Source: Escherichia coli
GTDB lineage: Bacteria; Pseudomonadota; Gammaproteobacteria; Enterobacterales; Enterobacteriaceae
NCBI RefSeq assembly: GCF_002854065.1
Contig: NZ_CP024147.1
DNA: 64,000 bases
Reading direction: 5' to 3' (one strand)
Shown here piece after piece: positions 13,400 through 14,094 of this stretch. The notes under the pieces are model-generated. The model did not search any database, was not told the DNA's origin, and worked only from the letters and a program-made list of their open reading frames with translations. Position 1 is the first letter of the stretch, and every line of letters starts with the position of its first letter. A program made the translations under genes and the position numbers.

Positions 13400-13932
13400 A
13401 TTAATCTGACCATCATTTTATATAAGACGGAATATTTAAACGCATTATACAATATGGGTTATCTTTCTTTTGTAAATTGTCCAACCCGATGCAATAGCTA
13501 TTTTGTTATTATTTGATGAATAGTATCAGTGCGTCATCATTCAAGTTAATAACCTTAAGGGATACCAGTTATATTTAAACTAAATTAAAGTAATGAATAA
13601 TTTTCTTATAATATAAGGTAAATTAACAAAATGGCTTCGCATTTAACAATAACCGAATAGAAAACAACCATTTCGACATCAACAATCGCTTACATTCGCT
13701 TATATATTGACCACAACTGATACATCAGATTATGTGATGACTCGTGCTTAGATCAATTTTTGCAATCATTAGCAAAAAGATTAATAAACCATCTATATCA
13801 ATTTATCCAACCTATTCTGCCGTTCAAGAAATCGTCGAACAGTTATTTTTAACAAATTTTTCTCTTCCCATTGACTTTCCCGGACACCTTGTCTGACCTA
13901 AGGTGCGCGAAAGCCACTTTTTCCTTCCTGAG

Positions 13933-13953
13933 TTATCCACAAAGTTATGCACT
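13933..13953 (+). promoter_or_regulatory. DnaA-box-like sites upstream of nrdA (ttatccaca, ttatgcact)
   Basis: ttatccaca matches the DnaA box consensus; nrdAB is known to be DnaA-regulated. Coordinates approximate. Confidence 0.45.
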
Positions 13954-13970
13954 TGCAAGAGGGCCATTTT

Positions 13971-14018
13971 CACACTATCTTGCAGTGAATCCCAAACATA
14001 CCCCCTATATATAGTGTT
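13971..14018 (+). promoter_or_regulatory. Putative NrdR boxes in the nrdA promoter region
   Basis: Two palindrome-like elements (cacactatcttgcagtg and ccctatatatagtgtt) about 80-120 bp upstream of the nrdA ATG, resembling the NrdR box consensus. Coordinates approximate. Confidence 0.4.
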
Positions 14019-14094
14019 CTAAGCAGCTTCCCGTACTACAGGTAGTCTGCACGAAACTATTGCGGAAAGAATTCCAAAAACAGGTACGACATAC

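What the first reader, a model, noticed from the sequence alone, without database searches (positions are those of the whole stretch)
13400..14094. Long AT-rich divergent control region between yfaL and nrdA with DnaA and NrdR-type boxes
A roughly 700-bp non-coding, strongly AT-rich stretch separates yfaL from nrdA. The nrdA-proximal part carries ttatccaca (DnaA box) and two NrdR-like palindromes, matching known nrdAB regulation. The distal AT-rich portion in front of yfaL looks like a silenced (H-NS type) promoter, which would fit an adhesin gene that can tolerate inactivation.
Basis: partly seen in the sequence, partly recalled or inferred. Interest (0 to 1): 0.2.

Follow-up and report, generated by a model that had tools for sequence, protein, structure and literature searches.

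The report
Known yfaL–nrdA divergent control region

Summary
Window 13400-14094 is the 695-bp spacer between yfaL (minus strand) and nrdA (plus strand). It aligns without gaps to E. coli K-12 and is present in 5,425 of 5,426 complete E. coli genomes. The distal 421 bp (GC 0.285) is the most AT-rich stretch of the whole 64-kb window. TTATCCACA lies at 13933-13941 with a second DnaA box at 13945-13953. NrdR palindromes lie at 13970-85, 14002-17 and 14033-48. A 2025 study shows the working NrdR pair is 14002-17 plus 14033-48, not the classical pair. RefSeq annotates a small ORF, ypaB, inside the spacer, but that ORF is broken in B2 E. coli, E. albertii and E. whittamii although the DNA is about 90-100% conserved. 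The spacer has two modules that meet at 13821. The nrdA side is conserved across Escherichia, and the yfaL side diverges together with yfaL. In passing, Escherichia carries its tandem DnaA boxes upstream of -35, whereas 88 loci from 31 other genera carry them downstream of the NrdR box. Already known; low interest.

The parts
13400..14094 (.). Whole yfaL-nrdA divergent spacer, 695 bp
   Evidence: Gapless alignment to K-12. Present in 5,425 of 5,426 complete E. coli genomes.
13400..13820 (.). yfaL-side module: very AT-rich (GC 0.285); corresponds to the K-12 H-NS-bound 'promoter island'
   Evidence: Lowest-GC stretch of the window. All 7 promoter-like sites of the scan fall here, against 3.3 +/- 1.8 in shuffles. 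Only 25-70% identical between Escherichia species. H-NS occupancy in K-12 from PMC3661553 and PMC3946193.
13729..13756 (-). Candidate sigma-70 promoter towards yfaL, TTGATC-16-CATAAT; implies a leader of about 320 nt
   Evidence: Promoter scan. The same hexamers are listed for the yfaL side of this spacer in genomic SELEX (PMC3946193). No transcription start site was available to me.
13821..14094 (+). nrdAB control module, conserved across Escherichia species and colinear with the ubiG-nrdA spacer of other Enterobacteriaceae
   Evidence: Conservation starts at 13821 in both alignments (A3, A4). The 40-bp bins from 13840 to 14039 are 82-100% identical across species.
13826..13876 (+). AAGAAATC, a T/A tract and ATTGAC: an upstream block shared with other genera; function not assigned here
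   Evidence: Invariant or nearly invariant columns in A4; shared k-mers with the same spacing.
13880..13895 (+). HusR (YnfL) box CCGGACACCTTGTCTG
   Evidence: Sequence identical to the box reported from genomic SELEX (Table 1) for the ypaB/nrdA spacer; the paper also describes gel-shift confirmation of predicted target sites, and I did not check that this spacer was among them (PMC12844172). The consensus alone is uninformative, with 37 matches in the window.
13916..13931 (+). Second reported HusR-like box CACTTTTTCCTTCCTG
   Evidence: PMC12844172, Table 1; sequence read.
13933..13941 (+). DnaA box 1, TTATCCACA (perfect consensus)
   Evidence: Invariant in six Escherichia sequences. DnaA regulation of nrdAB.
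13945..13953 (+). DnaA box 2, TTATGCACT (one mismatch), abutting the -35 hexamer
   Evidence: (D3). Invariant across Escherichia.
13953..13958 (+). nrdA promoter -35 hexamer, TTGCAA
   Evidence: Read from the sequence; 17-bp spacer to TATCTT. Placement agrees with box 0 lying 'in the -10 region' (PMC12176259). The weak match explains why the scan missed it.
13976..13981 (+). nrdA promoter -10 hexamer, TATCTT. The transcription start is about 110 nt before the ATG; that distance is from my memory of Tuggle and Fuchs and was not checked.
13970..13985 (+). NrdR box 0 (the classical upstream box), overlapping the -10 hexamer; binds NrdR very weakly
   Evidence: The probe for boxes 0+1 matches 13965-14022 exactly. 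KD above 6000 nM (PMC12176259).
14002..14017 (+). NrdR box 1, CCCCTATATATAGTGT
   Evidence: Invariant across Escherichia. Recognisable at up to 3 mismatches over 14 nt in 106 of the 118 loci examined.
14033..14048 (+). NrdR box 2, GTACTACAGGTAGTCT, separated from box 1 by a 15-bp linker
   Evidence: The probe for boxes 1+2 matches 13997-14053 with one flank mismatch. KD about 100 nM. The core ACTACnnGTAG is kept in all Escherichia species although the flanks vary.
13824..13967 (-). Annotated small ORF ypaB (47 codons), antisense across the nrdA upstream elements; probably not a conserved protein
   Evidence: Annotated. ATG is CTG in CFT073, and codon 18 is a stop in E. albertii and E. whittamii. 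No NCBIfam family. ypaB RNA was measured by RT-qPCR in PMC12844172.
9637..13399 (-). yfaL (AIDA-I type autotransporter adhesin), split here into two ORFs by a frameshift
   Evidence: ORFs 9637-13020 and 12878-13399. A 28-bp tandem duplication at 12867-12922 is seen against intact yfaL in two other strains.
14095..16380 (+). nrdA coding sequence

Best explanation
The region is the E. coli yfaL/nrdAB divergent control region, and it consists of two modules that meet at about 13820/13821. The nrdA-side module (13821-14094) holds the weak sigma-70 promoter of nrdAB (TTGCAA-17-TATCTT). Two tandem DnaA boxes lie immediately upstream of the -35 hexamer. A HusR site and a T/A tract lie further upstream. 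The NrdR operator (box 1 plus box 2) lies in the transcribed leader, and a decayed NrdR box 0 lies under the -10 hexamer. Through these sites nrdAB transcription is tied to replication status (DnaA-ATP), to the dATP/ATP balance (NrdR) and to growth phase (HusR, H-NS, Fis, IciA). The yfaL-side module (13400-13820) is very AT-rich DNA that arrived together with yfaL. It is coated by H-NS in K-12, holds many promoter-like hexamer pairs, among them TTGATC-16-CATAAT at 13756-13729, and keeps yfaL essentially silent under laboratory conditions. What is shown here: the sequence, its identity to K-12 sites, and the conservation pattern. What is taken from papers on K-12: protein binding and regulatory effects. 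What is inferred: that this strain behaves the same way, and that H-NS is what silences yfaL.
For: The alignment to K-12 is gapless and identical at every named motif. The published NrdR probes match with 0 and 1 mismatch. NrdR binds box 1 plus box 2 with KD about 100 nM and box 0 plus box 1 with KD above 6000 nM (PMC12176259). DnaA, Fis and IciA are named as activators and H-NS and NrdR as repressors of nrdAB (PMC4009431; DnaA-ATP repression in PMC11853086). HusR boxes are reported at this spacer (PMC12844172). The distal part is a promoter island bound by H-NS in all the ChIP-chip studies compared (PMC3661553) and an H-NS-marked spacer in genomic SELEX with the same yfaL-side promoter (PMC3946193; scan). 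GC of 0.285 is the lowest in the window. The two-module structure is seen directly: 82-100% identity across Escherichia species in the 40-bp bins from 13840 to 14039, against 25-70% in those from 13400 to 13839. yfaL lies between ubiG and nrdA only in Escherichia. yfaL phenotypes required an inserted constitutive promoter (PMC3764049).
Against: No binding or expression data exist for this strain. The H-NS high-affinity motif TCGATAAATT is not enriched in the spacer or in the window (67 found, 57 expected), so the H-NS prediction from sequence rests on AT content alone. I found no readable paper showing yfaL de-repression in an hns mutant. GadE and GadX are also reported to regulate yfaL (PMC4918353), so silencing is not the whole story. 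yfaL is frameshifted here, so its promoter may no longer be under selection in this strain.
Confidence: 0.9

Rival explanations
1. The distal AT-rich 420 bp is mainly an upstream extension of the nrdAB regulatory region, serving as H-NS nucleation or bending DNA for nrdAB repression or cell-cycle control, rather than as a yfaL promoter.
For: H-NS is reported to repress nrdAB (Cendra 2013, as cited in PMC4009431, and PMC12176259). H-NS filaments spread from AT-rich DNA, which is general knowledge. The part 13680-13799 is better conserved within E. coli (93-97% against CFT073) than 13400-13679 (72-85%).
Against: This DNA is not conserved between Escherichia species, while the adjoining nrdA module is 82-100% conserved from 13840 to 14039. 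It is absent from all genera that lack yfaL, where nrdA sits about 360 bp after ubiG. It diverges in step with the yfaL 5' end (64-68% amino-acid identity). This rival is not exclusive of the best explanation.
Confidence: 0.25
2. The spacer is not non-coding: ypaB (13824-13967, minus strand) is a real small-protein gene, and the strong conservation of 13821-13967 reflects its coding sequence.
For: ypaB is annotated in RefSeq and MG1655 as b4605. The conservation boundary at 13821 lies 3 bp from its stop codon. HusR-dependent ypaB RNA has been reported (PMC12844172).
Against: The start codon is CTG in CFT073, and ypaB is not annotated in the B2-type records listed (H24-H28). There is an in-frame stop at codon 18 in E. 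albertii and E. whittamii despite about 90-100% DNA identity. By my own count from the alignment, only 6 of 15 substitutions fall at third codon positions, close to the one third expected without coding constraint. No NCBIfam family matches. The same block is conserved in genera where the reading frame does not exist.
Confidence: 0.08
3. The AT-rich stretch hides an unannotated RNA element, such as an sRNA, a riboswitch-like yfaL leader or a structured nrdA leader.
For: The inferred yfaL leader is long (about 320 nt) and the nrdA leader is about 110 nt.
Against: There is no Rfam match even at E-value up to 1. The folding energy of the yfaL leader has z = -1.04 and that of the nrdA leader z = +0.36 against shuffles. 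No terminator-like sites were found. The nrdA leader tolerates 12-bp and 9-bp deletions in CFT073 and E. whittamii.
Confidence: 0.04

Closest known systems
E. coli K-12 nrdAB promoter region (tandem DnaA boxes, NrdR boxes, HusR, Fis, IciA and H-NS inputs)
   Same: The position is the same, and the bases are identical at both DnaA boxes, at -35 and -10, at NrdR boxes 0, 1 and 2, and at the HusR boxes.
   Different: Within the nrdA-proximal 274 bp there are 6 substitutions against K-12: 13835 (C in K-12) lies in the block upstream of the T/A tract, 13964 (T in K-12) lies in the spacer between -35 and -10, and 14052 (T in K-12) lies 4 nt after NrdR box 2. All fall outside the named elements.
'Promoter islands' of E. 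coli K-12 (PMC3661553): long AT-rich regions dense in promoter-like sites, H-NS-bound, poorly transcribed and linked to acquired genes
   Same: The region is homologous to island 2342143_534 (yfaL/ypaB). It shows the same excess of promoter-like sites, extreme AT content and adjacency to a lineage-specific gene.
   Different: H-NS occupancy and low transcriptional output were not measured for this strain. The downstream gene is a pseudogene here.
nrdAB control region of Salmonella and other Enterobacteriaceae and Erwiniaceae (PMC2892513 for Salmonella)
   Same: The overall order is colinear: AAGAAATC, T-tract, ATTGAC, promoter, two NrdR boxes about 31 bp apart, and the ACAGGTA ribosome-binding region. 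NrdR box 1 is nearly identical.
   Different: In those genera TTATCCACA starts 2 nt after NrdR box 1, usually followed by a second box; the 16 genera aligned also carry an inverted box. In Escherichia that segment is replaced by NrdR box 2, and the tandem DnaA boxes lie upstream of -35. No yfaL or AT-rich module is present in those genera.
'nrdA-like promoter' of phage P1 and P7-type phage-plasmids
   Same: A stretch of 115-140 bp (about window 13838-13981 at most) covering the T-tract, ATTGAC, the HusR box, both DnaA boxes and -35 is 82-95% identical. It is already annotated as an nrdA-like promoter with a dnaA box in M95666 and NC_005856.
   Different: Similarity ends just before the -10 hexamer. 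There are no NrdR boxes and no nrdA downstream. The copy sits near hot, upfN and upfO in the phage.

Membership tests
E. coli nrdAB promoter/operator (K-12 type) | Lies directly upstream of nrdA-nrdB-yfaE | tested here: met
   nrdA starts at 14095. The gene order matches annotated genomes.
E. coli nrdAB promoter/operator (K-12 type) | Two same-orientation DnaA boxes immediately upstream of the -35 hexamer | tested here: met
   13933-41 and 13945-53 are identical to K-12.
E. coli nrdAB promoter/operator (K-12 type) | NrdR operator: two 16-bp palindromic boxes separated by 15-16 bp | tested here: met
   Box 1 (14002-17) and box 2 (14033-48) have a 15-bp linker; box 0 to box 1 has a 16-bp linker. 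The probes match (definition).
E. coli nrdAB promoter/operator (K-12 type) | Actual binding of DnaA, NrdR, HusR and H-NS, and a regulatory effect | not testable with these tools
   Known only from K-12 experiments in papers.
H-NS-bound promoter island / xenogeneic silencing target | At least 300 bp of AT-rich DNA with an excess of promoter-like sites | tested here: met
   GC is 0.285 over 421 bp, the lowest in the window. There are 7 sites against 3.3 +/- 1.8 expected, all within 13449-13756.
H-NS-bound promoter island / xenogeneic silencing target | Association with a lineage-specific (acquired) gene | tested here: met
   yfaL lies between ubiG and nrdA only in Escherichia. All 9 non-Escherichia loci tested with tblastn, from 9 genera, have ubiG next to nrdA and no yfaL between them.
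H-NS-bound promoter island / xenogeneic silencing target | H-NS occupancy in vivo | not testable with these tools
   Reported for the K-12 homologue in all ChIP-chip sets compared and marked HNS in SELEX. The sequence motif test was uninformative.
H-NS-bound promoter island / xenogeneic silencing target | De-repression of the adjacent gene (yfaL) when hns is deleted | not tested
   No readable source was found. There is only indirect support: yfaL phenotypes needed an inserted promoter.
Protein-coding gene ypaB | Open reading frame with its start codon conserved among relatives that conserve the DNA | tested here: not met
   ATG is CTG in CFT073, and there is a stop at codon 18 in E. albertii and E. 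whittamii.
Structured cis-regulatory RNA (Rfam families) | Match to a covariance model, or folding energy beyond shuffled controls | tested here: not met
   No Rfam hit at E-value up to 1. The z-scores are -1.04 and +0.36.

The most novel reading that the evidence does not exclude
The nrdAB control region that serves as the textbook model is an Escherichia-specific rebuild. In 88 loci from 31 genera of Enterobacteriaceae and Erwiniaceae, the tandem DnaA boxes lie in the leader, starting 2 nt after NrdR box 1, which is a classical repressor position. In all Escherichia sequences examined that segment is replaced by NrdR box 2. The tandem boxes instead lie just upstream of -35, which is an activator position. 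The ancestral upstream NrdR box has become the -10 region (box 0), which would explain why it no longer binds NrdR. The rebuild is found only in the lineage where yfaL and its AT-rich DNA were inserted about 165 bp upstream of the start site. If this is right, the dual activator/repressor action of DnaA-ATP at nrdAB described for E. coli may not hold for Salmonella, Klebsiella and other enterics.
Probability: 0.35. Interest if true: 0.45.

Novelty: already known. Interest (0 to 1): 0.15.

Why it matters
As written, the finding adds nothing beyond the K-12 literature. It only confirms that this strain keeps the standard nrdAB control elements and the H-NS-type AT-rich DNA in front of yfaL. Two by-products have modest value. 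First, the conservation pattern argues that ypaB is regulatory DNA and not a protein gene, and it independently supports the 2025 reassignment of the NrdR operator to boxes 1 and 2. Second, the cross-genus comparison shows that the position of the DnaA boxes at nrdAB differs between Escherichia and the other enteric genera sampled. That matters for anyone extending the E. coli model of coupling between DnaA and ribonucleotide reductase to other bacteria.

Tried and rejected
- **H-NS motif:** a search for TCGATAAATT with up to 2 mismatches gave 67 matches against 57 expected in the window and only two weak hits in the spacer, so it was uninformative.
- **HusR consensus:** CNGNNNANNTNNNCNG matches 37 times in the window, which is too degenerate to identify a site without the published SELEX data.
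- **Rfam:** the scan of 13000-14500 at E-value up to 1 found nothing.
- **RNA folding:** neither putative leader folds better than shuffled controls.
- **Repeats:** the repeat search found only the DnaA-box repeat and low-complexity AT repeats.
- **BLAST to other genera:** the spacer aligned in most genera no further upstream than about -19 relative to the nrdA ATG, apart from short matches at or around NrdR box 1 in five loci (four Erwinia loci and one metagenome-assembled Enterobacteriaceae genome). Colinearity appeared only in a multiple alignment and a k-mer comparison.
- **ypaB family:** NCBIfam has no family for YpaB.
- **Papers not held:** Cendra 2013 (H-NS and nrd), Torrents 2007 (NrdR boxes) and Babu 2017. 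The exact H-NS, Fis and IciA footprints and the mapped start site could therefore not be checked; where I mention them it is from memory.
- **Phage origin of the Escherichia promoter:** I considered that it was imported from a P1-like phage and rejected this. The phage copy contains the blocks (T-tract, ATTGAC, CCTTGTCTGAC) that are colinear with the ancestral chromosomal spacer, so capture by the phage from an Escherichia chromosome is the simpler direction. This is inference.

Full report
**What is there.** Window 13400-14094 lies between the start of yfaL (ATG at 13399, minus strand) and the start of nrdA (ATG at 14095, plus strand). It is a 695-bp divergent spacer. A megablast search finds it in 5,425 of 5,426 complete E. 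coli genomes, always flanked by yfaL and nrdA. The closest record is 99.9% identical, K-12 is about 97% identical, and B2 strains such as CFT073 are about 90% identical. The alignment to K-12 has no gaps, so K-12 site coordinates transfer directly. In MG1655 (NC_000913.3) the window position equals the genome coordinate minus 2,330,770.

**Checking the observation.**
- GC is 0.340 for the spacer against 0.520 for the window. The distal 421 bp (13400-13820) has GC 0.285 and is the lowest-GC stretch of that length in the whole 64 kb.
- TTATCCACA is at 13933-13941. A one-mismatch copy, TTATGCACT, lies at 13945-13953, and the two form a 12-bp-spaced direct repeat.
- Consensus DnaA boxes are not more frequent in the window than chance (7 against 5.5). 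The case for these two boxes rests on their tandem position next to the promoter, on their invariance in six Escherichia sequences and on the literature.
- The only match in the window to the NrdR consensus is CCCCTATATATAGTGT at 14002-14017.
- Two weaker palindromes flank it: TCACACTATCTTGCAG at 13970-13985 and GTACTACAGGTAGTCT at 14033-14048.

**Comparison with mapped sites.** Rozman Grinberg and co-workers (PMC12176259) tested NrdR binding to two K-12 probes.
- The probe with the classical pair (their boxes 0 and 1) matches window 13965-14022 exactly. It bound with KD above 6000 nM.
- The probe with box 1 and a newly recognised box 2 matches 13997-14053 with one flank mismatch. It bound with KD about 100 nM.
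- Reviews name DnaA, Fis and IciA as activators and NrdR and H-NS as repressors of nrdAB (PMC4009431). High DnaA-ATP represses nrdAB (PMC11853086).
- A 2026 paper adds HusR (YnfL), with boxes CCGGACACCTTGTCTG (window 13880-13895) and CACTTTTTCCTTCCTG (13916-13931) (PMC12844172).
- The promoter hexamers TTGCAA (13953-58) and TATCTT (13976-81) are my reading of the sequence. They are consistent with box 0 lying "in the -10 region". The promoter is a weak consensus match and was not picked up by the scan.

**The distal AT-rich part.**
- Panyukov and Ozoline list island 2342143_534, "yfaL(-)/ypaB(-)", among 78 promoter islands of K-12. It is marked as H-NS-bound in all the ChIP-chip data sets they compared (PMC3661553, Table 1).
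- Shimada et al. list the yfaL<>nrdA spacer as an RNA polymerase SELEX site marked HNS, with a yfaL-side promoter TTGATC-16-CATAAT (PMC3946193). My scan found the same element at 13756-13729 on the minus strand.
- All seven promoter-like sites of that scan lie in 13449-13756, against 3.3 +/- 1.8 in shuffles.
- YfaL-dependent biofilm phenotypes were obtained by inserting a constitutive promoter before yfaL (PMC3764049). GadE and GadX are reported to regulate yfaL (PMC4918353).
- The H-NS reading is therefore supported for binding. Silencing of yfaL itself remains an inference, and a sequence search for the H-NS high-affinity motif was uninformative.

**Two modules.** I aligned the spacer from the window, K-12, CFT073, a divergent Escherichia genome labelled E. 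coli SCPM-O-B-8794, E. albertii and E. whittamii.
- There is a sharp break at 13821. In 40-bp bins, identity to the window is 82-100% from 13840 to 14039 but only 25-70% from 13400 to 13839 for the three non-coli lineages.
- yfaL lies between ubiG and nrdA only in Escherichia. In Salmonella, Citrobacter, Klebsiella, Enterobacter, Atlantibacter, Trabulsiella, Shimwellia, Phytobacter and "Escherichia sp. ESNIH1", ubiG is followed directly by nrdA, about 360 bp later where I read the coordinates.
- A 14-sequence alignment shows that 13821-14094 is colinear with that ancestral spacer. The shared blocks, in order, are AAGAAATC, a T-tract, ATTGAC, CCTT, the -35 region, the upstream NrdR box, NrdR box 1 and the ACAGGTA ribosome-binding region.
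- I infer that the yfaL gene and its 420-bp AT-rich upstream DNA were inserted at this point in an Escherichia ancestor. This fits the "acquired gene plus H-NS" picture.

**ypaB.** RefSeq annotates a 47-codon ORF at 13824-13967 on the minus strand, across the DnaA boxes.
- Its ATG is CTG in CFT073, and none of the B2-type records listed (H24-H28) annotates it.
- Codon 18 is a stop in E. albertii and E. whittamii, although the DNA is about 90-100% identical.
- No NCBIfam family matches.
- The DNA is conserved as regulatory sequence and not as a protein, so "non-coding" is a fair description. Antisense RNA from this segment has nevertheless been measured.

**RNA elements.** There is no Rfam match. 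Neither the putative yfaL leader nor the nrdA leader folds unusually. No terminator-like sites were found.

**Seen in passing: DnaA-box position differs between genera.** I examined 118 nrdA upstream regions (116 from one pattern scan of species-representative genomes plus the two E. coli records already fetched).
- In 88 loci from 31 genera, NrdR box 1 is followed 2 nt later by TTATCCACA, usually with a second box. The 16 genera aligned also carry an inverted TGTGGATAA, so there the DnaA boxes lie downstream of the NrdR box.
- All five Escherichia sequences lack these boxes. They carry the tandem boxes 69 and 57 nt upstream of box 1, with NrdR box 2 in the place of the downstream DnaA boxes.
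- The ancestral upstream NrdR box aligns with E. coli box 0, which now overlaps the -10 hexamer. This would explain its loss of NrdR affinity.
- Edwardsiella, Leminorella and one metagenome-assembled genome show a third pattern, with one box 79 nt upstream.
- Start sites outside E. coli and Salmonella are not known to me. The Salmonella paper marks NrdR and DnaA boxes in a figure that I could not see and does not discuss the difference in the text I read (PMC2892513).

**Seen in passing: phage copy.** About 115-140 bp of the Escherichia-type promoter (window about 13838-13981 at most) occurs in P1, P7, SJ46 and many P1-like plasmids at 82-95% identity, with 235 plasmid places. The P1 records already annotate it as an "nrdA-like promoter" with a dnaA box, so this is known.

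**Seen in passing: yfaL is broken here.** A 28-bp tandem duplication (12867-12894 and 12895-12922) shifts the frame. No complete E. coli genome in the collection spans the duplication junction.

**Verdict.** The feature is already known, so interest is low. The most novel reading left open is the Escherichia-specific rebuild of DnaA and NrdR control at nrdAB.

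Noticed in passing
window 12867-12922 (inside yfaL, minus strand): A perfect 28-bp tandem duplication (CATTAGCGATGTTATTGCGAAACACGGC twice on the plus strand) frameshifts yfaL into ORFs 9637-13020 and 12878-13399. The closest strain and K-12 have a single copy. None of the 5,426 complete E. coli genomes covers the duplication junction (best coverage 76% of the query, which is one copy).
   Followed up: yes
window 13824-13967 (minus strand): The annotated small ORF ypaB overlaps the nrdA DnaA boxes and -35 hexamer. Its start codon is lost in CFT073, and it has an in-frame stop in E. albertii and E. whittamii, although the DNA is about 90-100% conserved. It is probably not a conserved protein gene.
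   Followed up: yes
window 13820/13821; loci L007, L026, L115, L079 and others: There is a sharp conservation boundary. From 13840 to 14039 the spacer is 82-100% identical across Escherichia species and is colinear with the ubiG-nrdA spacer of other genera. Left of the boundary it is 25-70% identical. yfaL plus the AT-rich DNA looks like an Escherichia-specific insertion between ubiG and nrdA.
   Followed up: yes
window 13933-13953 against 14018-14060; loci L006-L125: In 88 loci from 31 genera (Salmonella, Citrobacter, Klebsiella, Enterobacter, Erwinia, Pantoea and others) a DnaA box starts 2 nt downstream of NrdR box 1, usually followed by a second box. In all 5 Escherichia sequences the tandem boxes lie upstream of -35 and NrdR box 2 occupies the downstream place. 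Edwardsiella and Leminorella have a single box 79 nt upstream of the NrdR box.
   Followed up: partly
window about 13838-13981; L003 4001-4139; L004/L005 2501-2615: Part of the nrdA promoter (T-tract, ATTGAC, HusR box, both DnaA boxes and -35) is present at 82-95% identity in phages P1, P7 and SJ46 and in 235 places on E. coli plasmids (P1-like phage-plasmids). The P1 records already annotate it as an 'nrdA-like promoter' with a dnaA box.
   Followed up: partly
window 14059-14076 (nrdA leader): CFT073 lacks 12 bp and E. whittamii lacks 9 bp of the leader around GGAAAGAATTCC, so this part of the 5' UTR is dispensable. The core of NrdR box 2, just upstream, is retained.
   Followed up: no
whole window: The degenerate HusR palindrome CNGNNNANNTNNNCNG occurs 37 times against 16.5 +/- 4.0 in dinucleotide-preserving shuffles. 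This is probably an effect of codon structure, but it was not examined.
   Followed up: no
window 9497-9636 (ubiG-yfaL spacer): The spacer contains a REP-like palindromic sequence (GCCTGATGCGACGC...GCGTCTTATCAGGCCTAC). Similar REP-like ends occur just after ubiG in C. amalonaticus and Kluyvera. The left junction of the yfaL insertion was not resolved.
   Followed up: no
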